From: Eledone cirrhosa | Lineage: Eukaryota | DNA: 64,000 bases | Assembly (NCBI GenBank): GCA_964016885.1 | Contig: OZ024744.1 | Coordinates: 132,556,001-132,620,000, forward strand | Direction: 5' to 3' | Part shown: one piece after another, positions 1 to 64,000 of the stretch | Numbering within the stretch: the stretch's first letter is position 1 | Layout of the letters: the number at the start of each line of letters is the position of its first letter | Program-made: the position numbers and the translations under genes | Notes under the pieces: generated by a model | What the model was told of the DNA's origin: nothing | What the model saw: the letters and a program-made list of their open reading frames with translations, nothing else | Database searches by the model: none

Positions 1-3000
1 GTTAAGTTGGGGTTAAGTTAAGTTGGGGTTAGGTTAAGTTGGGGATAAGTTAAGTTGGGGATAATTTAAGTTGGGGTTAAGTTAAGTTGGGTTTAAGTTA
101 AGCTGGGGTTAAGTTAAGTTGGGGTTAAATTAAGTTGGGGTTAAGTTAAGTTGGGGTTAAGTTAAGTTTGGGTTAGGTTAAGTTGGGGATTAGTTAAGTT
201 GGGGATAAGTTAAGTTGGGGTTAAGTTAAGTTGGGTTTAAGTTAAGTTGTGGTTAAGTTAAGTTGGGGTTAAGTTAAGTTGGGGCTTAAGTTAAGTTGGG
301 GTTAGGTTAAGTTGGGGATAAGTTAAGTTGGGGATAATTTAAGTTGGGGTTAAGTTAAGTTGGGTTTAAGTTAAGCTGGGGTTAAGTTAAGTTGGGGTTA
401 AATTAAGTTGGGGTTAAGTTAAGTTGGGGTTAAGTTAAGTTTGGGTTAGGTTAAGTTGGGGATTAGTTAAGTTGGGGATAAGTTAAGTTGGGGTTAAGTT
501 AAGTTGGGTTTAAGTTAAGTTGTGGTTAAGTTAAGCTGGGGTTAAGTTAAGTTGGGGTTAAATTAAGTTGGGGTTAATTTAAGTTGGGGTTAAGTTAAGT
601 TGGGGTTCAGTTAAGTTGGGGATAAGTCAAGTTGGGGTTAAGTTAAGTTGGGGTTAAGTTAAGTTGGGGTTAGGTTAAGTTGGGGATAAATTAAGTTGGG
701 GATAAGCTAAGTTGGGGTTAAGTTAAGTTGGGTTTAAGTTAAGTTGGGGTTAAGTTAAGTTGGGGTTAAATTAAGTTGGAGATAAGTTAAGCTGGGGTTA
801 AATTAAGTTGGGGTTAAGTTAAGTTGGGGTTAGGTTAAGTTGGGGTTAACCCCAACTTAACTTAACCCCAACTTAACTTAGCCCCAACTTCACTCAACCC
901 CAACTTAACTTAACCCCAACTTCACTCAACCCCAACTTAACTCAACCCCAACTTAATTTAACCCCAACTTAACTTAACCCTAACTTAACTTAACCCCGAC
1001 TTAACTTAACCCCGACTTAACTTAACCCCAACTTAACTTAACCCCAACTTAACTTAACCCCAACTTAACTTAATCCCAACTTGACTTAACCCCAACTTAA
1101 CGCACACCCAACTTAACTTACCCCCAACTTAACTTAACCCCAAAATCGGAGTTACGTTAAGTTGGGGTTAAGTTAAGTTAGGCTTAACTTAAGTTGGGCT
1201 TAAGTTAAGTTGGGGGTAAGTTAAGTTGGGGGTAAGTTAAGTTGGGGTTAATTTAAGTTGGGGTTAAGTTAAGTGGTGGTTATGTTAAGTTGGGGTTAAG
1301 TTAAGTTGGGGTTAAATTAAGTTGGGGTTAAGTTAAGTTGGGTGTAAGTTAAGTTGGGGTTGAGTGAAGTTGGGGTTAAGTTAAGTTGGGGTTAAGTAGA
1401 GTTGGGGTTAAGTTAAGTTGGGGTTAAGTTAAGTTGGTGTTAAGTTGGGGTTAAGTTAAGTTGGGGTTAAGTTGGGGTTAAGTTAAGTGGTGGTTATGTT
1501 AAGTTGGGGTTAACTTAAGTTGGGGTTAATTTAAATTGGGGTTAAGTTAACTTTGTGGTTAAGTTAAGTTGGGGTTAAGTTAAGTTGGGGTTAAGTTAAG
1601 TTGGGGTTGAGGGAAGTTGGGGTTAAGTTAAGTTGGGGTTAACTTAAGTTGGGTTTAACTTAAGTTGCGGTTAAGTTAAGTTAGGGTTAAGTTAAGTTGG
1701 GGTTAAGTTAAGTCGGGGTTAAGTTAAGTTGGGGTTGAGTTAAGTTGGGGTTAATTTAAGTTGAGGTTATGTTAAGTTGGGGTTAATTTAAGTTGGGGTT
1801 AAGTTAAGTTGGGGTTAAGTTAAGTTGGGGTTAATTTAAGTTGGGGTTAAGTTCAGTTGGGGTTAATTTAAGTTGGGGTTAAGTTAAGTTGGGTTTAAGT
1901 TAAGTTGGGGTTAAATTAAGTTGGGGTTAAATTAAGTTGGGGTTAAGTTAAGTTGGGGTTAGGTTAAGTTGGGGATAAGTTAAGTTGGGGATAAGCTAAG
2001 TTGGGGTTAAGTTAAGTTGGGTTTAAGTTAAGTTGGGGTTAAGTTAAGTCGGGGTTATGTTAAGTCGGTGTTAAGTTAAGTTAGGGTTAAGTTAAGTTGG
2101 GGTTAAGTTAAGTTGGGGTTGAGTTAAGTTGGGGTTGAGTTAAATTGGGGTTGAGTTAAGTTGGGGTTAAGTTAAGTTGGGGTTAAGTTAAGTTAGGGTT
2201 AAGTTAAGTTGGGGTTAAGTTAAGTTGGGGTTAAGTTAAGTTGGGGCTGAGTTAAGTTGGGTGTACGTTAAGTTGGGGTTGACTGAAGTTGGGGTTAAGT
2301 TAAGTTGGGGTTAAGTTAAGTTAGGGTTAATTTAAGTTGGGGTTATGTTAAGTTGGGGTTAAGTTAAGTTGGTGTTAAGTTGGGGGTAATTTAAGTGGTG
2401 GTTATGTTAAGTTGGGGTTAAGTTAAGTTGGGGTTAATTTAAATTGGGGTTAAGTTAACTTTGTGGTTAAGTTAAGTTGGAGTTAAGTTAAGTTGGAGTT
2501 AAGTTAAGTTGGGGTTGAGTGAAGTTGGGGTTAAGTTAAGTTGGGGTTAGCTTAAGTTGGGTTTGAGTTAAGTTGCGGTTAAGTTAAGTTGGGGTTAAGT
2601 TAAGTTGGGGTTAAGTTAAGTCGGGGTTAATTTAAGTTGGGGTTAAGTTAAGTTGGGGTTAATTTAAGTTGGGGTTAAGTTAAGTTTAGGTTAAGTTAAG
2701 TTGGGGTTAAATTAAGTTGGGGTTAAGTTAAGTTGGGGTTAAGTTAAGTTGGGGTTAGGTTAAGTTGGGGATAAGTTAAGTTGGGGATAAGTTAAGTTGG
2801 GGTTAAGTTAAGTTGGGTTTAAGTTAAGTTGGGGTTAAGTTAAGTTGGGGTTTAATTAAGTTGGGGTTGAGTTAAGTTGGGGTTGACTTAAGTTGGGCTT
2901 AAGTTAAGTTGGGGTTAAGTTAAGATGTGGTTAAGTTAAGTTGGGGTTAAGTTAAGTTGGGGTTAAATTAAGTTGGGGTTAAGTTAAGTTGGGGGTAAGG

Positions 3001-6266: not shown

Positions 6267-6982
6267 AGGTTTTTCGAAAACCTTATATAATCATTTTTAT
6301 TTAGGTTCTTCGAAACACCTTATATAATCAATTTTTTTAGGTTTTTCGAAAAACCTTATATAATCAATTTTTTAATACTTTTAGAAATATTTATATATGA
6401 TTTCAAATATTGATTTTATTAGGTTTTTGGAATAATCAATTTTTTTTACGTTTTTCGAAAAATGTTATATAATCAATTTTTTTTAGGTTTTTCGATTCAA
6501 TTCAATTTTTATAATCAAATATTTTTAGGTTTTTAGAAAAACCTTATATAATCAAATTTTTTTAGGTTTTTCGAAAAACCTTATATAATTAATTTTTTTA
6601 TACTTTTAGAAATATTTATATCTGATTTCAAATATTGGATTTTTTAGGTTTTTCGATAATCAATTTTTTTTAGATTTTTCGAAAAATCTTATATAATCAA
6701 TTTTTTTACGTTTTTAGAAAGACCTTATATAATCAATTTTTTCATACTTTTAGAAATATTTATATCTGATTTCAAATATTGATTTTTTTTTTAGGTTTTT
6801 CGAAATACCTTATATAATCAATTTTTTTTAGGTTTTTCAAATTACTTTATATAATCAATTTTTTTTATCTGATTTCAAATATTGATTTTTTTAGCTTTTT
6901 CGACAAAATCTTATATAATCAATTTTTTTTAGGTTTTTCGAAAAAGAATGAATTTGAGTTCATAGTCGAAATATATACTTCT

Positions 6983-7039
6983 GCATTAATCTTTTTACGT
7001 TTTTTTGATTTTTTTTAAAAAAACGTAAAAAATTAATGC
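6983..7039. other. Stem-loop in satellite-B core (GCATTAATCTTTTTACGTTTTTTT...AAAAAAACGTAAAAAATTAATGC), repeated in most B units
   Basis: About 23-bp inverted repeat with one bulged C and a short T-rich loop, read directly. Confidence 0.9.
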
Positions 7040-10000
7040 TTTTACAAATCTTTTGAAATATTTACTTTCTAGTTTCAAATTTTGCAGATTAAATTTTTCT
7101 CGAAAAACCTAAAAAATCAGTTGTCGAAATCAGAAGTTAATATTTCGAAAAACGCAATTTGAAAAACTCATATTAATTTTTTTTCGAAAACTTATTATAT
7201 AATCAATTTTTTTATACTTTTAGAAATATTTATATCTGATTTCAAATATTGATTTTTTTAGGTTTTTCGAAAACCCTATATAATCAATTTTTTTGTACTT
7301 TTAGAAATATCTATATCTGATTTCATGTATTGATTTTTTTATATTTTTCGAAAAAGCTTAGATAATCAATTTTTTTAGGTCTTTCGAAAACATTATATAA
7401 TCAATTTTTTTTTAGGTTTTTCGAAAAAACCTTATATAATCAATTTTTTTTAGGTTTTTCAAATATTGATTTTTTTAGCTTTTTCGACAAAATCTTATAT
7501 AATCAATTTTTTTTAGGTTTTTCGAAAAAGAATGAATTTGAGTTCATAGTCGAAATATATACTTCTGCATTAATCTTTTTACGTTTTTTTGATTTTTTTA
7601 AAAAAACGTAAAAAATTAATGCTTTTACAAATCTTTTGAAATATTTACTTTCTAGTTTCAAATTTTGCAGATTAAATTTTTCTCGAAAAACCTAAAAAAT
7701 CAGTTGTCGAAATCAGAAGTTAATATTTCGAAAAACGCAATTTGAAAAACTCATATTAATTTTTTTTCGAAAACATTATATAATCAATTTTTTAGAAATA
7801 TTTATATCTGATTTCAAATATTGATTTTTTTAGGTTTTTCGAAAACCCTATATAATCAATTTTTTTGTACTTTTAGAAATATCTATATCTGATTTCATGT
7901 ATTGATTTTTTTATATTTTTCGAAAAATCTTATATAATCAATTTTTTTACGTTTTTAGAAAAACCTTATATAATCAATTTTTTTTAGGTTTTTCGAAAAA
8001 CCTTATATAATCAATTTTTTTATGTTTTTTCGAAAAATCTTATATAATCAATTTTTTTACGTTTTTAGAAATATCTATATCTGATTTCAAATATTGATTT
8101 TTTTTAGATTTTTCGAAATACCTTATATAATCAATTTTTTTTAGGTTTTTCAAATTACCTTATATAATCAATTTTTTTTATCAGATTTCAAATATTGATT
8201 TTTTTAGCTTTTTCGACAAAATCTTATATAATCAATTTTTTTTAGGTTTTTCGAAAAAGAATGAATTTGAGTTCATAGTCGAAATATATACTTCTGCATT
8301 AATCTTTTTACGTTTTTTTGATTTTTTTTAAAAAAACGTAAAAAATTAATGCTTTTACAAATCTTTTGAAATATTTACTTTCTAGTTTCAAATTTTGCAG
8401 ATTAAATTTTTCTCGAAAAACCTAAAAAATCAGTTGTCGAAATCAGAAGTTAATATTTCGAAAAACGCAATTTGAAAAACTCATATTAATTTTTTTTCGA
8501 AAACATTATATAATCAATTTTTTTTTAGGTTTTTCGAAAAAACCTTATATAATCAATTCTTTTTTTGGTTTTTTCGAAAAATCTTATATAATCAATTTTT
8601 TTACGTTTTTAGAAAAACCTTATATAATCAATTTTTTTTAGATTTTTCAAAAAACCTTATATAATCAATTTTTTTTAGGTTTTTCGAAAAACCTTATATA
8701 ATCAATTTTTTTTGTTTTTTTGAAAAATCTTATATAATCAATTTTTTTACGTTTTTAGAAATATTTATATCTGATTTCAAATATTGATTTTTTTTAGGTT
8801 TTTCGAATTACCTTATATAATCAATTCTTTTTTTGGTTTTTTCGAAAAATCTTATATAATCAATTTTTTTACGTTTTTAGAAAAACCTTATATAATCAAT
8901 TTTTTTTAGATTTTTCAAAAAACCTTATATAATCAATTTTTTTTGTTTTTTTGAAAAATCTTATATAATCAATTTTTTTACGTTTTTAGAAATATTTATA
9001 TCTGATTTCAAATATTGATTTTTTTTAGATTTTTCGAAACACCTTATATAATCAATTTTTTTTAGGTTTTTCAAATTACCTTATATAATCAATTTTTTTT
9101 ATCTGATTTCAAATATTGATTTTTTTAGCTTTTTCGACAAAATCTTATATAATCAATTTTTTTTAGGTTTTTCGAAAAAGAATGAATTTGAGTTCATAGT
9201 CGAAATATATACTTCTGCATTAATCTTTTTACGTTTTTTTAATTTTTTTTAAAAAAACGTAAAAAATTAATGCTTTTACAAATCTTTTGAAATATTCACT
9301 ATCTAGTTTCAAATTTTGCAGATTAAATTTTTCTCGAAAAACCTAAAAAATCAGTTGTCGAAATCAGAAGTTAATATTTCGTAAAACGCAATTTGAAAAA
9401 CTCATTAATTTTTTTTCGAAAACTTATTATATAATCAATTTTTTTATACTTTTAGAAATATTTATATCTGATTTCAAATATTGATTTTTTTAGGTTTTTC
9501 GAAAACCCTATATAATCAATTTTTTTGTACTTTTAGAAATATCTATATCTGATTTCATGTATTGATTTTTTTATATTTTTCGAAAAAGCTTAGATAATCA
9601 ATTTTTTTAGGTCTTTCGAAAACCTTATATAATCAATTTTTTTTTAGGTTTTTCGAAAAAACCTTATATGATCAATTTTTTTTAGGTTTTTTCTAAAAAT
9701 CTTATATAATCAATTTTTTTTAGGTTTTTCGAAAAACCTTATATAATCAATTTTTTTTGTTTTTTCGAAAAATCTTATATAATTAATTTTTTTACGTTTT
9801 TAGAAATATTTATATCTGATTTCAAATATTGATTTTTTTTAGATTTTTCGAAATACCTTATATAATCAATTTTTTTTAGGTTTTTCAAATTACCTTATAT
9901 AATCAATTTTTTTTATCAGATTTCAAATATTGATTTTTTTAGCTTTTTCGACAAAATCTTATATAATCAATTTTTTTTAGGTTTTTCGAAAAAGAATGAA

Positions 10001-11480
10001 TTTGAGTTCATAGTCGAAATATATACTTCTGCATTTTTACGTTTTTTTGATTTTTTTTAAAAAAACGTAAAAAATTAATGCTTTTACAAATCTTTTGAAA
10101 TATTTACTTTCTAGTTTCAAATTTTGCAGATTAAATTTTTCTCGAAAAACCTAAAAAATCAGTTGTCGAAATCAGAAGTTAATATTTCGAAAAACGCAAT
10201 TTGAAAAACTCATATTAATTTTTTTTCGAAAACATTATATAATCAATTTTTTAGAAATATTTATATCTGATTTCAAATATTGATTTTTTTAGGTTTTTCG
10301 AAAACCCTATATAATCAATTTTTTTGTACTTTTAGAAATATCTATATCTGATTTCATGTATTGATTTTTTTATATTTTTCGAAAAATCTTATATAATCAA
10401 TTTGTTTACGTTTTTAGAAAAACCTTATATAATCAATTTTTTTTGTTTTTTCTAAAAATCTTATATAATCAATTTTTTTTAGGTTTTTCGAAAAACCTTA
10501 TATAATCAATTTTTTTATGTTTTTTCGAAAAATCTTATATAATCAATTTTTATACGTTTTTAGAAATATTTATATCTGATTTCAAATATTGATTTTTTTT
10601 AGATTTTTCGAAATACCTTATATAATCAATTTTTTTTAGGTTTTTCAAATTACCTTATATAATCAATTTTTTTTATCTGATTTCAAATATTGATTTTTTT
10701 AGCTTTTTCGACAAAATCTTATATAATCAATTTTTTTTAGGTTTTTCGAAAAAGAATGAATTTGAGTTCATAGTCGAAATATATACTTCTGCATTAATCT
10801 TTTTACGTTTTTTTGAAAAAATTAATGCTTTTACAAATCTTTTGAAATATTTACTTTCTAGTTTCAAATTTTGCAGATTAAATTTTTCTCGAAAAACCTA
10901 AAAAATCAGTTGTCGAAATCAGAAGTTAATATTTCGAAAAACGCAATTTGAAAAACTCATATTAATTTCTTTTCGAAAACATTATATAATCAATTTTTTA
11001 GAAATATTTATATCTGATTTCAAATATTGATTTTTTTAGGTTTTTCGAAAACCCTATATAATCAATTTTTTTGTACTTTTAGAAATATCTATATCTGATT
11101 TCATGTATTGATTTTTTTATATTTTTAGAAAAAGCTTAGATAATCAATTTTTTTAGGTCTTTCGAAAACCTTATATAATCAATTTTTTTTTAGGTTTTTC
11201 GAAAAAACCTTATATAATCATTATTTTTTAGGCTTTTTCGAAAAATCTTATATAATCAATTTTTTTACGTTTTTCGAAAAAACTTATATCAATTTTTTTT
11301 AGGTTTTTCAAAAAACCTTATATAATCAATTTTTTTTAGGTTTTTCGAAAAACCTTATATAATCAATTTTTTTTGTTTTTTCAAAAAATCTTATATAATC
11401 AATTTTTTTACGTTTTTAGAAATATTTATATCTTATTTCAAATATTGATTTTTTTTAGATTTTTCGAAATACCTTATATA

Positions 11481-11544
11481 ATCAATTTTTTTTAGGTTTT
11501 TCAAATCACCATAAGATAATTTGAAAAACCTAAAAAAAATTGAT
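11481..11544. other. Perfect 26-bp inverted repeat with 12-nt loop
   Basis: ATCAATTTTTTTTAGGTTTTTCAAAT (11481-11506), loop CACCATAAGATA, ATTTGAAAAACCTAAAAAAAATTGAT (11519-11544). Confidence 0.95.
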
Positions 11545-12245
11545 CTGATTTCAAATATTGATTTTTTTAGCTTTTTCGACAAAATCTTATATAATCAATT
11601 TTTTTTAGGTTTTTCGAAAAAGAATGAATTTGAGTTCATAGTCGAAATATATACTTCTGCATTAATCTTTTTACGTTTTTTTGAAAAAATTAATGCTTTT
11701 ACAAATCTTTTGAAATATTTACTTTCTAGTTTCAAATTTTGCAGATTAAATTTTTCTCGAAAAACCTAAAAAATCAGTTGTCGAAATCAGAAGTTATATC
11801 TCGTAAAACGCAATTTGAAAAACTCATATTAATTTTTTTTCGAAAACTTATTATATAATCAATTTTTTTATACTTTTAGAAATATTTATATCTGATTTCA
11901 AATGTTGATTTTTTTAGGTTTTTCGAAAACCCTATATAATCAATTTTTTTGTACTTTTAGAAATATCTATATCTGATTTCATGTATTGATTTTTTTATAT
12001 TTTTCGAAAAAGCTTAGATAATCAATTTTTTTAGGTCTTTCGAAAACCTTATATAATCAATTTTTTTTTAGGTTTTTCGAAAAAACCTTATATAATCAAT
12101 TTTTTTTAGGTTTTTTCGAAGTATCTTATATAATCAATTTTTTTACGTTTTTAGAAATATTTATATCTGATTTCAAATATTGATTTTTTTTAGATTTTTC
12201 GAAATACCTTATATAATCAATTTTTTTTAGGTTTTTCAAATTACC

Positions 12246-12420
12246 CCGACTTAACCCCGACTTAACTTAACCCCAACTTAACTTAACCCCAACTTAACTT
12301 AACCCCAACTTGACTTAACCCCAACATAACTCACACCCAACTTAACTTACCCCCAACTTAACTTAACCCCAACTTGACTTAACCCCAACTTAACTTAACC
12401 CCAACTTAACTTAACGCCAA
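12246..12420 (-). repeat. Inverted satellite-A cassette, class delta (truncated, abuts B island)
   Basis: Begins at CAAATTACC|CCGACTTAACCCCGAC; ends TTAACGCCAA|AGTCGGAGTT. Confidence 0.96.
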
Positions 12421-14445: not shown

Positions 14446-14790
14446 AACCCCAACTTAACTTAACCCCAACTTAACTTAACCCCAACTTCACTCAACCCCA
14501 ACTTAAATTAACCCCAACTTCACTCAACCCCAACTTAACTCAACCCCAACTTAAATTAACCCCAACTTAACTTAACCCTGACTTAACTTAACCCCGACTT
14601 AACTTAACCCCGACTTAACTTAACCCCAACTTAACTTAAACCCCAACTTAACTTAACCCCAACTTAACTTAACCCCAACTTGACTTAACCCCAACTTAAC
14701 TCACACCCAACTTAACTTACCCCTAACTTAACTTAACCACAACTTGACGTAAACCCAACTTAACTTAACCCCAACTTAACTTAACCCCAA
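14446..14790 (-). repeat. Inverted satellite-A cassette, class beta
   Basis: GGGGTT|AACCCC start; diagnostic CCCTGAC and GACGTAAACCC; ends CCCCAA|AGTCGGAGTTCAG. Confidence 0.96.
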
Positions 14791-15449: not shown

Positions 15450-15714
15450 AACCCCAACTTCACTCAACCCCAACTTAACTTAACCCCAACTTCACTCAAC
15501 CCCAACTTAACTCAACCCCAACTTAACTTAACCCCAACTTAACTTAACCCTAACTTAACTTAACCCCGACTTAAACTTAACCCCGACTTAACTTAACCCC
15601 AACTTAACTTAACCCCAACTTAACTTAACCCCAACTTAACTTAATCCCAACTTGACTTAACCCCAACTTAACTCACACCCAACTTAACTTACCCCCAACT
15701 TAACTTAACCCCAA
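15450..15714 (-). repeat. Inverted satellite-A cassette, class gamma
   Basis: GGGGTT|AACCCCAACTTCACTC start; diagnostic CGACTTAAACTT; ends CCCCAA|AGTCGGAGTTAAG. Confidence 0.96.
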
Positions 15715-18787: not shown

Positions 18788-19083
18788 AACCCCAACTTAA
18801 CTTAACCCCAACTTAACTTAGCCCCAACTTCACTCAACCCCAACTTAACTTAACCCCAACTTCACTCAACCCCAACTTAACTCAACCCCAACTTAAGTTA
18901 ACCCCAACTTAACTTAACCCTAACTTAACTTAACCCCGACTTAACTTAACCCCGACTTAACTTAACCCCAACTTAACTTAACCCCAACTTAACTTAACCC
19001 CAACTTAACTTAATCCCAACTTGACTTAACCCCAACTTAACGCACACCCAACTTAACTTACCCCCAACTTAACTTAACCCCAA
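18788..19083 (-). repeat. Inverted cassette, class alpha
   Basis: Same junctions and variants as 848-1143 (offset 17940). Confidence 0.96.
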
Positions 19084-20702
19084 AATCGGAGTTACGTTAA
19101 GTTGGGGTTAAGTTAAGTTAGGCTTAACTTAAGTTGGGCTTAAGTTAAGTTGGGGGTAAGTTAAGTTGGGGGTAAGTTAAGTTGGGGTTAATTTAAGTTG
19201 GGGTTAAGTTAAGTGGTGGTTATGTTAAGTTGGGGTTAAGTTAAGTTGGGGTTAAATTAAGTTGGGGTTAAGTTAAGTTGGGTGTAAGTTAAGTTGGGGT
19301 TGAGTGAAGTTGGGGTTAAGTTAAGTTGGGGTTAAGTAGAGTTGGGGTTAAGTTAAGTTGGGGTTAAGTTAAGTTGGTGTTAAGTCGGGGTTAAGTTAAG
19401 TTGGGGTTGAGTTAAGTTGGGGTTATTTTAAGTTGAGGTTATGTTAAGTTGGGGTTAATTTAAGTTGGGGTTAAGTTAAGTTGGGGTCAATTTAAGTTGG
19501 GGTTAAGTTCAGTTGGGGTTAATTTAAGTTGGGGTTAAGTTAAGTTGGGTTTAAGTTAAGTTGGGGTTAAGTTAAGTTGGGGTTGAGTTAAGTTGGGTTT
19601 AAGTTAAGTTGGGGCTAAGTTAAGTTGGGTCTAATTTGAGTTGGGGTTAAGTTAAGTTGGGGTTAAGTTAAGTTGAGGTTAAATTAAGTTGGGGTTAATT
19701 AAGTTGGGGTTAAGTTAAGTTGGGGTTAAGTTAAGTTGAGGTTAAGTTAACTTGGGGTTAAGTTAAGTTGGGGTTAAGTTAAGTTGGGGTTGAGTTAAGT
19801 TGGGGTTGAGTTAAGTTGGGGTTAAGTTAAGTTGGGGTTAAGTTAAGTTGGGGTTAAGTTAAGTTGGGGTTAATTTAAGTTAAGTTTGAGTTAAGTTGGG
19901 GTTAAGTTGGGGTTAAGTTAAGTTGGGGTTAAGTTACGTTGGGGTTAAGTTAAGTTGGGGTTAAGTTGAGGTTAAGTTAAGTTGTGGTTAAGTTAAGTTG
20001 GGGCTAAGTTAAGTTGGGGCTAAGTTAATTTGGGGTTAAGTTAAGTTGGGGTTAATTTAAGTTGGGGTTAGGTTAAGTTGGGGATAAGTTAAGTTGGGGA
20101 TAAGTTAAGTTGGGGTTAAGTTAAGTTGGGTTTAAGTTAAGCTGGGGTTAAGTTAAGTTGGGGTTAAGTTGGGGTTAAGTTAAGTTAGGGTTAAGTTAAG
20201 TTGGGGTTGACTTAAGTTGGGGTTAAGTTAAGTGGTGGTTATGTTAAGTTGGGGTTAAGTTAAGTTGGGGTTAAATTAAGTGGGGTTAACTTAAGTTGGG
20301 TGTAAGTTAAGTTGGGGTTGAGTGAAGTTGGGGTTAAGTTAAGTTGGGGTTAAGTTAAGTTAGGGTTAATTTAAGTTGGGGTTATGATAAGTTGGTGTTA
20401 AGTTAAGTTGGGGTTAAGTCGAGTTGGGGTTAAGTTAAGTTGGGGTTAAGTTAAATTGGTGTTAAGTTAAGTTGGGGTTAAGTTAAGTTGGGGTTAGTTA
20501 AGTTGAGTTTAAGTTAAGTTGGGGTTAATTTAAGTTGGGGTTAAGTTAAGTTGGGGTTCAGTTAAGTTGGGGTTAAGTTAAGTTGGGGTTGAGTTAAGTT
20601 GTGGTTAAGTTAAGTTGGGGTTAGGTTAAGTTGGGGTTAAGTTAAGCTGGGGTTAAATTAAGTTGGGGTTAAGTTAAGTTGGGGTTAGGTTAAGTTGGGG
20701 TT

Positions 20703-20967
20703 AACCCCAACTTCACTCAACCCCAACTTAACTTAACCCCAACTTCACTCAACCCCAACTTAACTCAACCCCAACTTAACTTAACCCCAACTTAACTTAA
20801 CCCTAACTTAACTTAACCCCGACTTAAACTTAACCCCGACTTAACTTAACCCCAACTTAACTTAACCCCAACTTAACTTAACCCCAACTTAACTTAATCC
20901 CAACTTGACTTAACCCCAACTTAACTCACACCCAACTTAACTTACCCCCAACTTAACTTAACCCCAA
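20703..20967 (-). repeat. Inverted cassette, class gamma
   Basis: Matches 15450-15714 (offset 5253). Confidence 0.96.
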
Positions 20968-23900
20968 AGTCGGAGTTAAGTTAAGTTGGGGTTAAGTTAA
21001 GTTAGGCTTAACTTAAGTTGGGGTTAAGTTAAGTTGGGGGTAAGTTAAGTTGGGGGTAAGTTAAGTTGGGGTTAAGTTAAGTTGGGGTTAAGATAAGTGG
21101 TGGTTATGTTAAGTTGAGGTTAAGTTAAGTTAGGGTTAAATTAAGTTGGGGTTAAGTTAAGTTGGGTGTAAGTTAAGTTGGGGTTGAGTGAAGTTGGGGT
21201 TAAGTTAAGTTGGGGTTAAGTAGAGTTGGGGTTAAGTTAAGTTGGGGTTAAGTTAAGTTGGTGTTAAGTTGGGGTTAAGTTAAGTTGGGGTTAAGTTGGG
21301 GTTAAGTTAAGTGGTGGTTATGTTAAGTTGGGGTTAACTTAAGTTGGGGTTAATTTAAATTGGGGTTAAGTTAACTTTGTGGTTAAGTTAAGTTGGGGTT
21401 AAGTTAAGTTGGGGTTAAATTAAGTTGGGGTTGAGTGAAGTTGGGGTTAAGTTAAGTTGGGGTTAAGTTAAGTTGGGGTTAACTTAAGTTGGGTTTAAGT
21501 TAAGTTGCGGTTAAGTTAAGTTGGGGTTAAGTTAAGTTGGGGTTAAGTTAAGTCGGGGTTAATTTAAGTTGGGGTTGAGTTAAGTTGGGGTTAATTTAAG
21601 TTGAGGTTATGTTAAGTTGGGGTTAATTTAAGTTGGGGTTAAGTTAAGTTGGGGTTAAGTTAAGTTGGGGTTAATTTAAGTTGGGATTAAGTTCAGTTGG
21701 GGTTAAATTAAGTTGGGGTTAAGTTAAGCTGGGGTTAAATTAAGTTGGGGTTAAGTTAAGTTGGGGTTAAGTTAAGTTGGGGTTAAGTTAAGTTAGGGTT
21801 AATTTAAGTTGGGGTTATGTTAAGTTGGGGTTAAGTTAAGTTGGGGTTAAGTCGAGTTGGGGTTAAGTTAAGTTGGGGTTAGTTAAGTTGAGTTTAAGTT
21901 AAGTTGGGGTTAATTTAAGTTGGGGTTAAGTTAAGTTGGGGTTCAGTTAAGTTGGGGTTAAGTTAAGTTGGGGTTAAGTTAAGTTGGTTTAAGTTAAGTT
22001 GGGGTTAGGTTAAGTTGGGGATAAGTTAAGTTGGGGATAAGCTAAGTTGGGGTTAAGTTAAGTTGGGTTTAAGTTAAGTTGGGGTTAAGTTAAGTTAGGC
22101 TTAACTTAAGTTGGGGTTAAGTTAAGTTGGGGGTAAATTAAGTTGGGGGTAAGTTAAGTTGGGGTTAAGTTAAGTTGGGGTTAAGTTAAGTGGTGGTTAT
22201 GTTAAGTTGGGGTTAAGTTAAGTTGGGGTTAAATTAAGTTGGGGTTAAGTTATGTTGGGTGTAAGTTAAGTTGGGGTTGAGTGAAGTTGGGGTTAAGTTA
22301 ACTTGGGGTTAAGTTAAGTTAGGGTTAATTTAAGTTGGGGTTATGTTAAGTTGGGGTTAAGTTAAGTTGGGGTTAAGTAGAGTTGTGGTTAAGTTAAGTT
22401 GGGGTTAAGTTAAGTTGGTGTTAAGTTGGGGTTAAGTTAAGTTGGGGTTAAGTTAAGTCGGGGTTAAGTTAAGTTGGGGTTGAGTTAAGTTGGGGTTAAT
22501 TTAAGTTGAGGTTATGTTAAGTTGGGGTTAATTTAAGTTGGGGTTAATTTAAGTTGGGGTTAAGTTAAGTTGGGGTTAAGTTGAGGTTAAGTTAAGTTGT
22601 GGTTAAGTTAAGTTGGGGCTAAGTTAAGTTGGGGCTAAGTTAAGTTGGGGCTAAGTTAAGTTGGGGTTAAGTTAAGTTGGGGTTAAGTTAAGTTGGGTTT
22701 AATTTAATTTGGGGTCAACTTAAGTTGGGGTTAAGTTGAGTTGGGGTTAAATTAAGTTGGGGTTAATTTAAGTTGGGGCTAAGTTAAGTTGGGGCTGAGT
22801 TAAGTTGGGGTTAAGTTAAGTTGGGGTTAAGTTAAGTTGGGGTTAAGTTAATTTTGGGTTAAGTTAAGTTGTGGTTCAGTTAAGTTGGGGTTAAGTTAAG
22901 TTTGGGTTAATTTGGGGTTAAATTAAGTTGGGGTTAAGTTAAGTTGGGGTTAAGTTAAGTTGGGGTTAAGTTAAGTTGGGGTTAATTTAAGTTGGGGTTA
23001 AGTTAAGTCGGGGTTAAGTTAAGTCGGTGTTAAGTTAAGTTAGGGTTAAGTTAAGTTGGGGTTAAGTTAAGTTGGCTTTAAGTTAAGCTGGGGTTAAGTT
23101 AAGTTGGGGTTAAATTAAGTTGGGGTTAAGTTAAGTTGGGGTTAGGTTAAGTTTGGGTTAGGTTAAGTTGGGGTTAAATTAAGTTGGGGTTAAGTTAAGT
23201 TGGGGTTAAGTTAAGTTGGGGTTAGGTTAAGTTGGGGATAAGTTAAGTTGGGGATAATTTAAGTTGGGGTTAAGTTAAGTTGGGTTTAAGTTAAGCTGGG
23301 GTTAAGTTAAGTTGGGGTTAAATTAAGTTGGGGTTAAGTTAAGTTGGGGTTAAGTTAAGTTTGGGTTAGGTTAAGTTGGGGATTAGTTAAGTTGGGGATA
23401 AGTTAAGTTGGGGTTAAGTTAAGTTGGGTTTAAGTTAAGTTGTGGTTAAGTTAAGTTGGGGTTAAGTTAAGTTGGGGCTTAAGTTAAGTTGGGGTTAGGT
23501 TAAGTTGGGGATAAGTTAAGTTGGGGATAATTTAAGTTGGGGTTAAGTTAAGTTGGGTTTAAGTTAAGCTGGGGTTAAGTTAAGTTGGGGTTAAATTAAG
23601 TTGGGGTTAAGTTAAGTTGGGGTTAAGTTAAGTTTGGGTTAGTTTAAGTTGGGGATTAGTTAAGTTGGGGATAAGTTAAGTTGGGGTTAAGTTAAGTTGG
23701 GTTTAAGTTAAGTTGTGGTTAAGTTAAGCTGGGGTTAAGTTAAGTTGGGGTTAAATTAAGTTGGGGTTAATTTAAGTTGGGGTTAAGTTAAGTTGGGGTT
23801 CAGTTAAGTTGGGGATAAGTCAAGTTGGGGTTAAGTTAAGTTGGGGTTAAGTTAAGTTGGGGTTAGGTTAAGTTGGGGATAAGTTAAGTTGGGGATAAGC

Positions 23901-24040
23901 TAAGTTGGGGTTAAGTTAAGTTGGGTTTAAGTTAAGTTGGGGTTAAGTTAAGTTGGGGTTAAATTAAGTTGGAGATAAGTTAAGCTGGGGTTAAATTAAG
24001 TTGGGGTTAAGTTAAGTTGGGGTTAGGTTAAGTTGGGGTT

Positions 24041-34400: not shown

Positions 34401-34535
34401 TGGGGTTAAGTTAAGTTGGGTTTAAGTTAAGTTGGGGTTAAGTTAAGTTGGGGTTAAATTAAGTTGGAGATAAGTTAAGCTGGGGTTAAATTAAGTTGGG
34501 GTTAAGTTAAGTTGGGGTTAGGTTAAGTTGGGGTT

Positions 34536-39800: not shown

Positions 39801-39869
39801 GAGATAAGTTAAGCTGGGGTTAAATTAAGTTGGGGTTAAGTTAAGTTGGGGTTAGGTTAAGTTGGGGTT

Positions 39870-45342: not shown

Positions 45343-48300
45343 AGGTTTTTCGAAAACCTTATATAATCATTTTTATTTAGGTTCTTCGAAACACCTTATA
45401 TAATCAATTTTTTTAGGTTTTTCGAAAAACCTTATATAATCAATTTTTTAATACTTTTAGAAATATTTATATATGATTTCAAATATTGATTTTATTAGGT
45501 TTTTGGAATAATCAATTTTTTTTACGTTTTTCGAAAAATGTTATATAATCAATTTTTTTTAGGTTTTTCGAATCAATTCAATTTTTATAATCAAATATTT
45601 TTAGGTTTTTAGAAAAACCTTATATAATCAAATTTTTTTAGGTTTTTCGAAAAACCTTATATAATTAATTTTTTTATACTTTTAGAAATATTTATATCTG
45701 ATTTCAAATATTGGATTTTTTAGGTTTTTCGATAATCAATTTTTTTTAGATTTTTCGAAAAATCTTATATAATCAATTTTTTTACGTTTTTAGAAAGACC
45801 TTATATAATCAATTTTTTCATACTTTTAGAAATATTTATATCTGATTTCAAATATTGATTTTTTTTTTAGGTTTTTCGAAATACCTTATATAATCAATTT
45901 TTTTTAGGTTTTTCAAATTACTTTATATAATCAATTTTTTTTATCTGATTTCAAATATTGATTTTTTTAGCTTTTTCGAAAAAATCTTATATAATCAATT
46001 TTTTTTAGGTTTTTCGAAAAAGAATGAATTTGAGTTCATAGTCGAAATATATACTTCTGCATTAATCATTTTACGTTTTTTTGATTTTTTTTAAAAAAAC
46101 GTAAAAAATTAATGCTTTTACAAATCTTTTGAAATATTTACTTTCTAGTTTCAAATTTTGCAGATTAAATTTTTCTCGAAAAACCTAAAAAATCAGTTGT
46201 CGAAATCAGAAGTTAATATTTCGAAAAACGCAATTTGAAAAACTCATATTAATTTTTTTTCGAAAACATTATATAATCAATTTTTTAGAAATATTTATAT
46301 CTGATTTCAAATATTGATTTTTTTAGGTTTTTCGAAAACCCTATATAATCAATTTTTTTGTACTTTTAGAAATATCTATATCTGATTTCATGTATTGATT
46401 TTTTTATATTTTTCGAAAAATCTTATATAATCAATTTTTTTACGTTTTTAAAAAAACCTTATATAATCAATTTTTTTTAGGTTTTTCGAAAAACCTTATA
46501 TAATCAATTTTTTTATGTTTTTTCGAAAAATCTTATATAATCAATTTTTTTACGTTTTTAGAAATATTTATATCTGATTTCAAATATTGATTTTTTTTAG
46601 ATTTTTCGAAATACCTTATATAATCAATTTTTTTTAGGTTTTTCAAATTACCTTATATAATCAATTTTTTTTATCTGATTTCAAATATTGATTTTTTTAG
46701 CTTTTTCGACAAAATCTTATATAATCAATTTTTTTTAGGTTTTTCGAAAAAGAATGAATTTGAGTTCATAGTCGAAATATATACTTCTGCATTAATCTTT
46801 TTACGTTTTTTTGATTTTTTTTAAAAAAACGTAAAAAATTAATGCTTTTACAAATCTTTTGAAATATTCACTTTCTAGTTTCAAATTTTGCAGATTAAAT
46901 TTTTCTCGAAAAACCTAAAAAATCAGTTGTCGAAATCAGAAGTTAATATTTCGTAAAACGCAATTTGAAAAACTCATTAATTTTTTTTCGAAAACTTATT
47001 ATATAATCAATTTTTTTATACTTTTAGAAATATTTATATCTGATTTCAAATATTGATTTTTTAGGTTTTTCGAAAACCCTATATAATCAATTTTTTTGTA
47101 CTTTTAGAAATATCTATATCTGATTTCATGTATTGATTTTTTTATATTTTTCGAAAAAGCTTAGATAATCAATTTTTTTAGGTCTTTCGAAAACATTATA
47201 TAATCAATTTTTTTTTAGGTTTTTCGAAAAAACCTTATATAATCAATTTTTTTTAGGTTTTTCAAATATTGATTTTTTTAGCTTTTTCGACAAAATCTTA
47301 TATAATCAATTTTTTTTAGGTTTTTCGAAAAAGAATGAATTTGAGTTCATAGTCGAAATATATACTTCTGCATTAATCTTTTTACGTTTTTTTGATTTTT
47401 TTAAAAAAACGTAAAAAATTAATGCTTTTACAAATCTTTTGAAATATTTACTTTCTAGTTTCAAATTTTGCAGATTAAATTTTTCTCGAAAAACCTAAAA
47501 AATCAGTTGTCGAAATCAGAAGTTAATATTTCGAAAAACGCAATTTGAAAAACTCATATTAATTTTTTTTCGAAAACATTATATAATCAATTTTTTAGAA
47601 ATATTTATATCTGATTTCAAATATTGATTTTTTTAGGTTTTTCGAAAACCCTATATAATCAATTTTTTTGTACTTTTAGAAATATCTATATCTGATTTCA
47701 TGTATTGATTTTTTTATATTTTTCGAAAAAGCTTAGATAATCAATTTTTTTAGGTCTTTCGAAAACCTTATATAATCAATTTTTTTTTAGGTTTTTCGAA
47801 AAAACCTTATATGATCAATTTTTTTAGGTTTTTTCTAAAAATCTTATATAATCAATTTTTTTTAGGTTTTTCGAAAAACCTTATATAATCAATTTTTTTT
47901 GTTTTTTCGAAAAATCTTATATAATTAATTTTTTTACGTTTTTAGAAATATTTATATCTGATTTCAAATATTGATTTTTTTTAGATTTTTCGAAATACCT
48001 TATATAATCAATTTTTTTTAGGTTTTTCAAATTACCTTATATAATCAATTTTTTTTATCAGATTTCAAATATTGATTTTTTTAGCTTTTTCGACAAAATC
48101 TTATATAATCAATTTTTTTTAGGTTTTTCGAAAAAGAATGAATTTGAGTTCATAGTCGAAATATATACTTCTGCATTTTTACGTTTTTTTGATTTTTTTT
48201 AAAAAAACGTAAAAAATTAATGCTTTTACAAATCTTTTGAAATATTTACTTTCTAGTTTCAAATTTTGCAGATTAAATTTTTCTCGAAAAACCTAAAAAA

Positions 48301-50244
48301 TCAGTTGTCGAAATCAGAAGTTAATATTTCGAAAAACGCAATTTGAAAAACTCATATTAATTTTTTTTCGAAAACATTATATAATCAATTTTTTAGAAAT
48401 ATTTATATCTGATTTCAAATATTGATTTTTTTAGGTTTTTCGAAAACCCTATATAATCAATTTTTTTGTACTTTTAGAAATATCTATATCTGATTTCATG
48501 TATTGATTTTTTTATATTTTTCGAAAAATCTTATATAATCAATTTTTTTACGTTTTTAGAAAAACCTTATATAATCAATTTTTTTTGTTTTTTCTAAAAA
48601 TCTTATATAATCAATTTTTTTTAGGTTTTTCGAAAAACCTTATATAATCAATTTTTTTATGTTTTTTCGAAAAATCTTATATAATCAATTTTTATACGTT
48701 TTTAGAAATATTTATATCTGATTTCAAATATTGATTTTTTTTAGATTTTTCGAAATACCTTATATAATCAATTTTTTTTAGGTTTTTCAAATTACCTTAT
48801 ATAATCAATTTTTTTTATCTGATTTCAAATATTGATTTTTTTAGCTTTTTCGACAAAATCTTATATAATCAATTTTTTTTAGGTTTTTCGAAAAAGAATG
48901 AATTTGAGTTCATAGTCGAAATATATACTTCTGCATTAATCTTTTTACGTTTTTTTGAAAAAATTAATGCTTTTACAAATCTTTTGAAATATTTACTTTC
49001 TAGTTTCAAATTTTGCAGATTAAATTTTTCTCGAAAAACCTAAAAAATCAGTTGTCGAAATCAGAAGTTAATATTTCGAAAAACGCAATTTGAAAAACTC
49101 ATATTAATTTCTTTTCGAAAACATTATATAATCAATTTTTTAGAAATATTTATATCTGATTTCAAGTATTGATTTTTTTAGGTTTTTCGAAAACCCTATA
49201 TAATCAATTTTTTTGTACTTTTAGAAATATCTATATCTGATTTCATGTATTGATTTTTTTATATTTTTAGAAAAAGCTTAGATAATCAATTTTTTTAGGT
49301 CTTTCGAAAACCTTATATAATCAATTTTTTTTTAGGTTTTTCGAAAAAACCTTATATAATCATTATTTTTTAGGCTTTTTCGAAAAATCTTATATAATCA
49401 ATTTTTTTACGTTTTTAGAAATATTTATATCTTATTTCAAATATTGATTTTTTTTAGATTTTTCGAAATACCTTATATAATCAATTTTTTTTAGGTTTTT
49501 CAAATCACCATAAGATAATTTGAAAAACCTAAAAAAAATTGATCTGATTTCAAATATTGATTTTTTTAGCTTTTTCGACAAAATCTTATATAATCAATTT
49601 TTTTTAGGTTTTTCGAAAAAGAATGAATTTGAGTTCATAGTCGAAATATATACTTCTGCATTAATCTTTTTACGTTTTTTTGAAAAAATTAATGCTTTTA
49701 CAAATCTTTTGAAATATTTACTTTCTAGTTTCAAATTTTGCAGATTAAATTTTTCTCGAAAAACCTAAAAAATCAGTTGTCGAAATCAGAAGTTATATCT
49801 CGTAAAACGCAATTTGAAAAACTCATATTAATTTTTTTTCGAAAACTTATTATATAATCAATTTTTTTATACTTTTAGAAATATTTATATCTGATTTCAA
49901 ATATTGATTTTTTTAGGTTTTTCGAAAACCCTATATAATCAATTTTTTTGTACTTTTAGAAATATCTATATCTGATTTCATGTATTGATTTTTTTATATT
50001 TTTCGAAAAAGCTTAGATAATCAATTTTTTTAGGTCTTTCGAAAACCTTATATAATCAATTTTTTTTTAGGTTTTTCGAAAAAACCTTATATAATCAATT
50101 TTTTTTAGGTTTTTTCGAAGTATCTTATATAATCAATTTTTTTACGTTTTTAGAAATATTTATATCTGATTTCAAATATTGATTTTTTTTAGATTTTTCG
50201 AAATACCTTATATAATCAATTTTTTTTGGGTTTTTCAAATTACC
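45343..50244. repeat. Satellite B island 2 (6 higher-order units)
   Basis: Same left and right junctions as island 1; core marker at 46022, 46752, 47333, 48136, 48896, 49621. Confidence 0.98.
49480..49543. other. Second copy of the perfect 26-bp inverted repeat
   Basis: Same as 11481-11544 at offset 37999. Confidence 0.95.
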
Positions 50245-52444: not shown

Positions 52445-52892
52445 AACCCCAACTTAACTTAACCCCAACTTAACTTAACCCCAACTTCACTCAACCCCAA
52501 CTTAACTTAACCCCAACTTCACTCAACCCCAACTTAATTTAACCCCAACTTAACTTAACCCCAACTTAACTTAACCACAAAGTTAACTTAACCCCAATTT
52601 AAATTAACCCCAACTTAAGTTAACCCCAACTTAACATAACCACCACTTAACTTAACCCCAACTTAACCCCAACTTAACTTAACCCCAACTTAACACCAAC
52701 TTAACTTAACCCCGACTTAACTTAACCCCAACTTAACTTAAACCCCAACTTAACTTAACCCCAACTTAACTTAACCGCAACTTGACTTAACCCCAACTTA
52801 ACTCACACCCAACTTAACTTACCCCTAACTTAACTTAACCACAACTTGACGTAAACCCAACTTAACTTAACCCCAACTTAACTTAACCCCAA
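52445..52892 (-). repeat. Inverted cassette, class beta, chimeric and lengthened (448 bp vs 345 bp)
   Basis: Beta ends, but the interior carries ACCACAAAGTTAAC, CATAACCACCAC and AACACCAAC, which are absent from the other beta copies. Confidence 0.94.
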
Positions 52893-62052: not shown

Positions 62053-64000
62053 AGGTTTTTCGAAAACCTTATATAATCATTTTTATTTAGGTTCTTCGAA
62101 ACACCTTATATAATCAATTTTTTTAGGTTTTTCGAAAAACCTTATATAATCAATTTTTTAATACTTTTAGAAATATTTATATATGATTTCAAATATTGAT
62201 TTTATTAGGTTTTTGGAATAATCAATTTTTTTTACGTTTTTCGAAAAATGTTATATAATCAATTTTTTTTAGGTTTTTCGAATCAATTCAATTTTTATAA
62301 TCAAATATTTTTAGGTTTTTAGAAAAACCTTATATAATCAAATTTTTTTAGGTTTTTCGAAAAACCTTATATAATTAATTTTTTTATACTTTTAGAAATA
62401 TTTATATCTGATTTCAAATATTGGATTTTTTAGGTTTTTCGATAATCAATTTTTTTTAGATTTTTCGAAAAATCTTATATAATCAATTTTTTTACGTTTT
62501 TAGAAAGACCTTATATAATCAATTTTTTCATACTTTTAGAAATATTTATATCTGATTTCAAATATTGATTTTTTTTTTAGGTTTTTCGAAATACCTTATA
62601 TAATCAATTTTTTTTAGGTTTTTCAAATTACTTTATATAATCAATTTTTTTTATCTGATTTCAAATATTGATTTTTTTAGCTTTTTCGACAAAATCTTAT
62701 ATAATCAATTTTTTTTAGGTTTTTCGAAAAAGAATGAATTTGAGTTCATAGTCGAAATATATACTTCTGCATTAATCTTTTTACGTTTTTTTGATTTTTT
62801 TTTAAAAAACGTAAAAAATTAATGCTTTTACAAATCTTTTGAAATATTTACTTTCTAGTTTCAAATTTTGCAGATTAAATTTTTCTCGAAAAACCTAAAA
62901 AATCAGTTGTCGAAATCAGAAGTTAATATTTCGAAAAACGCAATTTGAAAAACTCATATTAATTTTTTTTCGAAAACATTATATAATCAATTTTTTAGAA
63001 ATATTTATATCTGATTTCAAATATTGATTTTTTTAGGTTTTTCGAAAACCCTATATAATCAATTTTTTTGTACTTTTAGAAATATCTATATCTGATTTCA
63101 TGTATTGATTTTTTTATATTTTTCGAAAAATCTTATATAATCAATTTTTTTACGTTTTTAAAAAAACCTTATATAATCAATTTTTTTTAGGTTTTTCGAA
63201 AAACCTTATATAATCAATTTTTTTATGTTTTTTCGAAAAATCTTATATAATCAATTTTTTTACGTTTTTAGAAATATTTATATCTGATTTCAAATATTGA
63301 TTTTTTTTAGATTTTTCGAAATACCTTATATAATCAATTTTTTTTAGGTTTTTCAAATTACCTTATATAATCAATTTTTTTTATCTGATTTCAAATATTG
63401 ATTTTTTTAGCTTTTTCGACAAAATCTTATATAATCAATTTTTTTTAGGTTTTTCGAAAAAGAATGAATTTGAGTTCATAGTCGAAATATATACTTCTGC
63501 ATTAATCTTTTTACGTTTTTTTGATTTTTTTTAAAAAAACGTAAAAAATTAATGCTTTTACAAATCTTTTGAAATATTCACTTTCTAGTTTCAAATTTTG
63601 CAGATTAAATTTTTCTCGAAAAACCTAAAAAATCAGTTGTCGAAATCAGAAGTTAATATTTCGTAAAACGCAATTTGAAAAACTCATTAATTTTTTTTCG
63701 AAAACTTATTATATAATCAATTTTTTTATACTTTTAGAAATATTTATATCTGATTTCAAATATTGATTTTTTTAGGTTTTTCGAAAACCCTATATAATCA
63801 ATTTTTTTGTACTTTTAGAAATATCTATATCTGATTTCATGTATTGATTTTTTTATATTTTTCGAAAAAGCTTAGATAATCAATTTTTTTAGGTCTTTCG
63901 AAAACATTATATAATCAATTTTTTTTTAGGTTTTTCGAAAAAACCTTATATAATCAATTTTTTTTAGGTTTTTCAAATATTGATTTTTTTAGCTTTTTCG
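62053..64000. repeat. Satellite B island 3 (truncated by window end)
   Basis: Same left junction GATGGGGTTAAGTT|AGGTTTTTCGAAAACC; core marker at 62732 and 63462; near-identical to 45343 onward (offset 16710). Confidence 0.98.

What the first reader, a model, noticed from the sequence alone, without database searches (positions are those of the whole stretch)
1..64000. Two-satellite composite macro-repeat with a multi-level hierarchy
Seen: a 5-bp GTTAA module builds a 16-bp monomer, which builds cassette-plus-tail units of 1-5 kb, which build a 16.7-17.9 kb macro-unit containing one AT-rich palindromic island. Landmark order across the window is alpha-B-delta-beta-gamma-alpha-gamma-alpha-gamma-beta-gamma-alpha-gamma-alpha-B-delta-beta-gamma-alpha-B. 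Copies differ by only scattered SNPs and indels, so amplification looks recent. Inference: a G-rich structure-forming matrix co-amplified with AT-rich hairpin islands may be a functional chromosomal domain, such as a recombination-maintained chromosome end, or a centromere with the islands as protein-loading sites.
Basis: partly seen in the sequence, partly recalled or inferred. Interest (0 to 1): 0.75.

Follow-up and report, generated by a model that had tools for sequence, protein, structure and literature searches.

The report
Mosaic satellite block in octopod chromosome
The nested pattern of two repeats and small inversions is real and lies inside an 8.4-million-base repeat block that ends over a million bases short of the assembled chromosome end in what is likely an octopus relative; it likely grew by passive copying of a few old junctions, is not a telomere, and its possible centromere role is untested.

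Summary
A 16-bp G-rich satellite carries 17 inverted cassettes and 3 AT-rich islands in exactly the reported order. Copies match over up to 7.5 kb at about 99.9%. There is no fixed macro-unit: island spacing runs 4.7-39 kb, and the islands are not whole palindromes. The window lies in an 8.4-Mb block on C28 (126.97-135.35 of 136.5 Mb) of a coleoid cephalopod, probably an octopod. It is not a telomere: 10 of 46 scaffold ends carry TTAGGG and none carries either satellite. All cassettes share one end junction and all islands one entry junction, so the hierarchy likely comes from a few rearrangements copied by unequal exchange. A 221-bp exact inverted patch points to continuing exchange. Odds that the block overlaps the centromere are about 45%; that the islands are loading sites, about 10%. 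Tribolium cassettes and human Yq12 have similar layouts. The scan already noted this array in four nearby windows. Verdict: a new member of a known kind.

The parts
1..64000 (+). Satellite A matrix: 16-bp GTTAA-GTTAA-GTTGGG monomers, G-rich strand on +, about 80% of the window; part of an 8.4-Mb block (C28:126.97-135.35 Mb)
   Evidence: block limits from samples
848..1141 (-). Inverted cassette alpha (294 bp); further copies 18788-19081, 24041-24334, 34536-34829, 39870-40163, 56618-56895 (278 bp)
6267..12241 (+). AT-rich island B1 (satellite B: 35-38-bp and 46-47-bp monomers with an 18-bp palindromic core, plus seven ~250-bp units)
6931..7184 (+). ~250-bp B unit with an internal hairpin (folding z -6.8) and an inverted, diverged piece of the B monomers; about 91% like tandem arrays on C18
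6251..6292 (+). A-to-B entry junction; 28 exact copies in the genome, all on C28; same junction, slightly diverged, at C28:128.7 Mb
12242..12418 (-). Cassette delta: right half of a beta-like cassette joined directly to B, lacking the palindromic centre; second copy 50241-50417
14446..14788 (-). Inverted cassette beta (343 bp); second copy 30194-30536
15450..15712 (-). Inverted cassette gamma (263 bp); further copies 20703-20965, 26085-26347, 31198-31460, 36580-36842, 53440-53702
18788..39869 (+). Island-free stretch of gamma-alpha (5.25-5.4 kb) and beta-gamma duplications
45343..50240 (+). AT-rich island B2 (six ~250-bp units)
52445..52890 (-). Cassette beta-prime (446 bp)
52493..52713 (-). 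221-bp patch in beta-prime that is an exact inverted copy of a forward gamma-tail stretch (five identical candidates, nearest at 53981)
62053..64000 (+). AT-rich island B3, cut by the window end (6.7 kb in full)

Best explanation
The window is a patch of a chromosome-specific, megabase-scale satellite block whose nested pattern likely arose by passive amplification of a few one-off junctions inside likely heterochromatin. Shown: an 8.4-Mb array of the 16-bp satellite A; one A-to-B entry junction shared by two island-bearing subdomains 3.8 Mb apart; one family of inverted cassettes sampled from C28:130.25 to 135.0 Mb; near-identical multi-kb duplications with mostly private substitutions and indels in 16-bp steps. 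Inferred order: (1) A expanded. (2) A piece of satellite B, kin to pure arrays on C18, C1 and C2, was joined in once. (3) A 170-450-bp inversion formed with one break at the monomer's own TTAA palindrome, probably by template switching. (4) A deletion with 5-bp microhomology fused B to the middle of a cassette, giving delta. (5) In-register unequal exchange then copied blocks of 5-18 kb, giving an irregular hierarchy. (6) Conversion between opposite arms still patches cassettes. The likely role is bulk heterochromatin at or near the centromere region of this chromosome's short end (about 45% that it overlaps the centromere), with no special function for islands or cassettes.
For: All 9 distinct cassette sequences share diagnostic monomers and the end junction. 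The junction recurs in samples from 130.24 to 135.0 Mb and at 124.6 Mb. There are 679 exact palindromic centres, and the listing starts at C28 with none on C1-C27. The entry junction has 28 exact copies, all on C28, and the same join stands at 128.7 Mb. At 132.01 Mb B is followed by about 550 bp of forward A and then beta, while in the window B runs into a beta-like right half over a shared TTACC. Substitutions are star-like and private, and indels come in 16-bp steps. A 221-bp exact inverted patch sits in beta-prime. Island spacing is 4.7-39 kb, so there is no fixed period. The cassette end junction has 9 variants in 102 copies and is no better kept than its flanks (0.062 vs 0.042-0.127). Large parts of the block lack cassettes or islands. 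Unequal recombination as the source of irregular higher-order repeats is the reading in 10.64898/2026.09.17.752431 (section 6 read).
Against: The palindromic cassette centre is better kept than its flanks: 76 of 79 copies keep the exact 12-bp centre, with core mismatch 0.016 vs 0.031-0.116. Anchoring on that motif inflates the figure, but selection is not excluded. Junction hairpins fold far better than shuffles (z -19 and -25), as any satellite inversion would. A second, independent inversion at 128.7 Mb also travels with B islands. The 200-bp A flank left of the entry junction is no more alike between subdomains (0.875) than random monomer runs (median 0.87), so the single-entry claim rests on the junction and the first B monomers. 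The order of events is inferred from one haplotype and from samples, not from the whole block.
Confidence: 0.68

Rival explanations
1. The block is the functional centromere of C28, and the AT-rich islands or inversion hairpins are the sites that recruit CENP-A chromatin (the first reader's centromere reading, in the spirit of the Tribolium macro-dyad proposal).
For: It is an 8.4-Mb satellite block near one end of a 136.5-Mb chromosome. Kin satellites form interior blocks on other chromosomes: B-type at C1:251.1, C2:209.2 and C18:12.9-13.1; A at C3:184.8-185.1; a 196/227-bp GC satellite at C1:279.7, C2:243.6 and C4:233.6. The cassette centre is well kept. Intermixed two-satellite centromere candidates exist (10.64898/2026.09.17.752431). 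An earlier unreviewed note reports the B family on 12 of 27 chromosomes.
Against: The composite was found only on C28. C1 and C2 each carry two separate blocks, 28 and 34 Mb apart. The 196/227-bp satellite (14,734 exact hits of one 32-mer) has nucleosome-scale monomers and is a competing candidate; it also occurs on C28 at 124.7-126.3 Mb, outside the block. Short-dyad density in B is at shuffle level. I confirmed B-type arrays on only 4 chromosomes.
Confidence: 0.17
2. The block is a recombination-maintained chromosome end or subtelomeric cap.
For: The G-rich strand points towards the nearer end, as at a telomere. The monomer resembles TTAGGG and borders interstitial TTAGGG on C3. C28's assembled end has no telomere, and the block contains at least one scaffold gap, so its place could be off.
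Against: About 1.15 Mb of other sequence follows the block. 10 of 46 ends examined carry plain TTAGGG in the right orientation and 0 of 46 carry A or B. The window has no tandem TTAGGG.
Confidence: 0.05
3. The unit order is an assembly artefact.
For: Copies are about 99.9% identical. A 200-N gap with poor-looking sequence and a strand flip lies 174 kb downstream of the window. No long reads were available.
Against: The window has no N. Copies carry private substitutions rather than homopolymer indels. The A|B junction is in raw reads of another sample. Units of 5-18 kb are within long-read length (own knowledge).
Confidence: 0.07
4. Both satellites are amplified rDNA intergenic-spacer subrepeats.
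For: Deleted rDNA units at C28:125.3 and 126.0 Mb are followed by 230 bp of A and by the GC satellite.
Against: The intact rDNA units on C12, C25 and C4 (3 of 3 loci examined) hold no A and no GC satellite, and only one 42-50-bp B-like hit inside an AT-rich insert on C4.
Confidence: 0.03

Closest known systems
Tribolium madens TmSat1/TmSat2 mosaics with macro-dyad symmetry (PMC13081366; abstract and section 7 read); T. freemani (PMC12581902; abstract and start of introduction only)
   Same: Multi-megabase regions of a major satellite interrupted by a minor one in cassettes with stereotyped transitions, elastic interiors and recurrent, conserved inversion sites.
   Different: There the two satellites share a ~110-bp ancestor, inverted arms are kilobases long and tend to symmetry, and the regions likely cover the (peri)centromeres of all chromosomes. 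Here A (16 bp) and B (37/46 bp) look unrelated, inverted blocks are 177-446 bp against 0.5-5-kb tails, and the composite was found on one chromosome.
Human Yq12 heterochromatin, alternating DYZ1 (HSat3) and DYZ2 (HSat1B) (10.1101/2022.12.01.518658; passages read)
   Same: Chromosome-specific block in which a satellite built on a short module alternates with an AT-rich satellite; array sizes vary widely; local expansion homogenises neighbours.
   Different: Yq12 arrays are tens of kb to Mb with a near 1:1 unit ratio and two flanking inversions. Here islands are 0.7-8.4 kb, make up 20-29% of the subdomain, and hundreds of small inversions are amplified.
Ditypic satellite centromere candidates with heterogeneous higher-order repeats (10.64898/2026.09.17.752431; section 6 and passages read)
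   Same: Two intermixed families, irregular higher-order blocks, chromosome-specific variants.
   Different: Those families are chosen for being shared across chromosomes, and 128 of 263 have 100-200-bp monomers. The main text has 0 mentions of octopus, cephalopod or mollusc; supplements of this preprint could not be read and may list one.
[quoted passage not shown]
   Same: Satellite blocks that switch orientation at defined inserted elements.
   Different: One inverted pair of ~15-kb elements per centromere on most chromosomes, against many small, irregularly spaced cassettes on one chromosome here.

Membership tests
Telomere / recombination-maintained terminal array | Lies at the chromosome terminus | tested here: not met
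   Block ends at C28:135.34-135.36 Mb of 136.50 Mb; C28's own telomere is not assembled
Telomere / recombination-maintained terminal array | Is the repeat found at assembled chromosome ends | tested here: not met
   10 of 46 ends carry TTAGGG, 0 of 46 carry A or B
Satellite centromere (criteria of 10.64898/2026.09.17.752431) | Long contiguous array | tested here: met
   About 8.4 Mb by sampling, with at least one scaffold gap
Satellite centromere (criteria of 10.64898/2026.09.17.752431) | High local homogenisation | tested here: met
   Blocks of 7.5 kb at 99.9%
Satellite centromere (criteria of 10.64898/2026.09.17.752431) | Family shared by many chromosomes | tested here: inconclusive
   Composite only on C28; A on C2, C3, C28; B-type on C1, C2, C18, C28. 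Listings stop at 100 places, so C5-C27 were not surveyed
Satellite centromere (criteria of 10.64898/2026.09.17.752431) | Gene-poor, transposon-rich surroundings | not tested
   Flanks only sampled; other satellites and rDNA fragments seen
Satellite centromere (criteria of 10.64898/2026.09.17.752431) | CENP-A occupancy or primary constriction | not testable with these tools
   Needs CUT&Tag, methylation or FISH
Regimented higher-order repeat (alpha-satellite type) | Fixed multimer period repeated over long range | tested here: not met
   Island spacing 4.7-39 kb; several unit types
Tribolium-type macro-dyad satellite mosaic | Minor satellite embedded with stereotyped transitions and variable interior | tested here: met
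   One entry junction, islands 0.7-8.4 kb
Tribolium-type macro-dyad satellite mosaic | Kilobase-long, roughly symmetric inverted subarrays | tested here: not met
   Inverted blocks 177-446 bp; perfect arms 7-14 bp
Tribolium-type macro-dyad satellite mosaic | Inversion sites conserved | tested here: inconclusive
   Centre exact in 76 of 79 copies; end junction has 9 variants in 102 copies
rDNA spacer-derived satellite | Monomer present in the spacer of intact rDNA units | tested here: not met
   0 of 3 intact loci hold A; one 42-50-bp B-like hit
G-quadruplex-forming repeat | G3+ runs with loops of 1-7 nt, or G4Hunter of 1.2 or more | tested here: not met
   0 motifs with loops up to 7 nt, 420 with loops up to 12; mean 0.995; 24% of 25-nt windows reach 1.2. 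Thresholds are recalled

The most novel reading that the evidence does not exclude
The block is the centromere of this octopod chromosome, built from a telomere-derived 16-bp repeat, and the AT-rich islands and amplified inversion centres are kept by selection as the sites where centromeric chromatin is loaded. It would be a first sequence-level cephalopod centromere, and an independent case of the inversion-and-cassette layout proposed for flour beetles.
Probability: 0.1. Interest if true: 0.65.

Novelty: new member of a known kind. Interest (0 to 1): 0.3.

Why it matters
As it stands, the block is a clear record of how a satellite turns three or four chance rearrangements into a deep hierarchy, with one conversion event between inverted arms caught intact. 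It also gives concrete probes (A, B and the 196/227-bp satellite) for locating cephalopod centromeres. My searches (listings and abstract starts) turned up no paper describing cephalopod centromeric satellites, though the library lacks most subscription journals. If CENP-A sat on the islands, it would support the idea that repeat layout rather than sequence defines centromeres.

Tried and rejected
rDNA spacer origin: rejected. An Rfam scan of the intact rDNA loci failed internally; the units were placed from the 5.8S hits and blastn instead. Telomere role: rejected. Fixed 17-kb macro-unit: rejected. Cassettes as mirror duplications of their immediate flank: not found; best local matches lie elsewhere and only slightly above the median. 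'B replaced a cassette centre on entry': dropped, because B is followed by forward A at 128.7 and 132.01 Mb, so delta is secondary. CENP-B box (motif recalled, mammalian): 0 matches. No RNA holder listed. The 0.10 share of run X4 (organism B) was laid only for two short stretches: B pieces present (15 contigs), junction not seen, which is no proof of absence. X1-X3 may be the source sample and are not counted as independent. Look-ups of earlier findings by nearness and by sequence returned nothing.
Full report
1. Is it there? Yes. The window is two satellites and nothing else. Satellite A is GTTAA-GTTAA-GTTGGG, with 1,649 16-bp against 28 11-bp spacings and 93.3% mean identity over 309 monomers of one tail. 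Seventeen short blocks of A are inverted: six alpha, three beta, six gamma and two delta. Three islands of satellite B (18% GC) start at 6267, 45343 and 62053. Duplicated blocks reach 7,499 bp with 7 mismatches. In 8 gamma-alpha tails from a 274-kb stretch, 1 of 39 substitution sites is shared and all 4 indels are multiples of 16 bp. One of these 8 tails is much more diverged than the rest, probably a recombinant.

Two parts of the description fail. The 16.7-17.9-kb unit occurs twice in the window, while the first two islands are 39,076 bp apart; in 247 kb, 18 islands are 0.7-8.4 kb long and 4.7-39 kb apart. The island is also not a palindrome. It is a tandem array of 35-38-bp and 46-47-bp monomers with an 18-bp palindromic core and a recurring ~250-bp unit. 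That unit folds well (z -6.8), but short-dyad coverage in one 1-kb stretch equals shuffles (0.33 vs 0.36; arms of 8 or more, 0.068 vs 0.040 +/- 0.028), and two monomer stretches gave z -4.3 and -1.2.

2. Where is it? The window is G000:C28:132,556,001-132,620,000 in a 3.0-Gb genome, and C28 is 136.5 Mb. A hemocyanin unit scores 650-659 bits against two single-unit chains that I recall as octopus and squid and at most 507 against others I recall as gastropod. One gene cluster shows seven units, which by recall fits octopods. So the host is a coleoid cephalopod, probably an octopod. Earlier notes name a species and call C28 the Z chromosome; I tested neither. Satellite A starts at 126,967,457 and ends between 135.34 and 135.36 Mb. 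All my samples in between were A or A plus B, but the block was sampled, not read in full. A 200-N gap at 132,793,543 is followed by poor-looking sequence and a strand flip, so orientation across the block is uncertain. Of 46 scaffold ends examined (25 starts, 21 ends; 2 of them small scaffolds), 10 carry TTAGGG in telomeric orientation and 0 carry A or B.

The composite is local. The entry junction has 28 exact copies, all on C28. The palindromic centre has 679 exact copies, with none listed before C28. The parts occur elsewhere. A forms a 0.3-0.8-Mb array beside interstitial TTAGGG at C3:184.8 Mb and is a module of a ~520-bp unit at C2:209.2 Mb. B-type arrays lie at C1:251.1, C2:209.18 and C18:12.87-13.07 Mb. 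A 196/227-bp GC-rich satellite lies at C1:279.7, C2:243.6, C4:233.6 and C28:124.7-126.3 Mb. Listings stop at 100 places, so the small chromosomes were not surveyed.

Outside support is limited. In a RAD run of another sample with the same species label, 7 of 16 laid reads match at 99+% and cover the A|B junction; 5 end at one place. The ~250-bp unit is in contigs of X1, which may be the source sample, and in pieces in organism B. No long reads were available.

3. How it likely arose. All 9 distinct cassette sequences share diagnostic monomers and one end junction, and that junction recurs from 130.24 to 135.0 Mb: one inversion, copied. Its left break lies on the monomer's own TTAA palindrome, as do both breaks of an unrelated inversion at 128.7 Mb. 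This fits template switching at short inverted repeats (inference). The same A-to-B join opens islands at 128.7 and 132.0-132.8 Mb, which suggests one entry of B, although the A flank beyond the join is no more alike than chance (0.875 vs median 0.87). At 132.01 Mb B is followed by about 550 bp of forward A and then beta. In the window B runs straight into the right half of a beta-like cassette across a shared TTACC, so delta is likely a later microhomology deletion. Beta-prime holds 221 bp that exactly match a forward gamma-tail stretch in inverted orientation, a sign of recent exchange between opposite arms. In-register unequal exchange then explains the 5-18-kb blocks and the irregular spacing (inference).

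Function. G4 potential is weak: 0 motifs with loops up to 7 nt, 420 with loops up to 12, and mean G4Hunter 0.995 against 1.22 for the interstitial TTAGGG. Perfect palindromic arms are only 7-14 bp. The cassette end junction has 9 variants in 102 copies and drifts like its flanks. The centre is exact in 76 of 79 copies, which is the best point for selection but is inflated by anchoring. Much of the block lacks cassettes or islands. I put passive amplification in heterochromatin at 0.68, a centromere organised by islands or hairpins at 0.17 (islands as selected loading sites about 0.10), misassembly at 0.07, a chromosome end at 0.05 and an rDNA spacer origin at 0.03. That last lead came from deleted rDNA units next to the block and failed on 3 of 3 intact loci. 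That the block overlaps the centromere at all I put near 0.45.

4. What is known. Tribolium madens has multi-megabase mosaics of a major satellite with minor-satellite cassettes, conserved inversion sites and stereotyped transitions (PMC13081366, abstract and section 7 read). This array works like that in layout but fails the kilobase symmetric-arm feature. Human Yq12 alternates a pentamer-based and an AT-rich satellite on one chromosome (10.1101/2022.12.01.518658, passages). Intermixed two-family arrays with irregular higher-order repeats are listed in 10.64898/2026.09.17.752431 (section 6 and passages); its main text does not mention cephalopods and its supplements could not be read. PMC12581902 and PMC13652916 were seen as abstracts. 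Passages of PMC12682272 describe chromosome fusions in octopods, and passages of PMC12210499 report CENP-A in molluscs. The Tribolium, Yq12 and atlas leads, and the second subdomain at 128.7 Mb, came from earlier scan notes.

5. Verdict. These are undescribed sequences as far as my searches reach, in an organisation known from beetles and humans. The same array was noted in four nearby windows by this scan. New member of a known kind; interest 0.3.

Noticed in passing
L027 and L028 (C28:125.3 and 126.0 Mb); GC satellite also in L058 (126.3 Mb): Repeated mosaic of a heavily deleted rDNA unit (5' spacer, 18S start with internal tandem repeats, 28S end), a histone 3' stem-loop match, 230 bp of satellite A and a palindromic block of the 196-bp GC satellite.
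   Followed up: partly
L140 (C28:135.36 Mb), L123 (C28:124.59 Mb), L133-L134 (C18:13.07-13.15 Mb): An old, diverged 32-bp hexamer-like satellite (69-73% matches) borders the A block, its inverted outlier and the C18 B array, and holds short TTAGGG runs; a possible link between interstitial telomere repeats and A.
   Followed up: partly
L123, L025, L026, L143 (C28:124.60-124.69 Mb): A ~90-kb inverted outlier of the composite array with two B islands, 2.3 Mb before the main block and next to a scaffold gap; could be a real inversion or a misplaced contig.
   Followed up: partly
L085, L086, L093, L094, L100, L102 (C1:279.7, C2:243.6-244.4, C4:233.6-234.1 Mb): A 196/227-bp GC-rich satellite with 14,734 exact hits of one 32-mer; a competing centromere candidate. 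C1 and C2 each carry two separate blocks of these families.
   Followed up: partly
L020, L095 (C3:184.74-184.77 Mb): Long degenerate interstitial TTAGGG array at 49% of a 379-Mb chromosome, directly joined to satellite A in opposite polarity; possibly a fusion scar.
   Followed up: no
window 6930-7200: In run X1 most depth carries other letters than the window at several sites (e.g. 19,422 of 20,302 at 7071), hinting that other B subfamilies are commoner than the window's type or under-assembled; depth is no copy number.
   Followed up: no
L077 (C28:132,793,543-132,795,100): 200-N gap followed by about 1.3 kb of degenerate, error-like sequence and a switch of strand.
   Followed up: partly
L084 (C1:279.69 Mb): A 20-bp satellite that also flips orientation at its own palindromic site, beside the GC satellite block.
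   Followed up: no
L049-L053 (C4:352.08-352.10 Mb): An rDNA unit of about 40 kb whose spacer holds a ~21-kb AT-rich insert, against about 20-22-kb units on C12 and C25.
   Followed up: no
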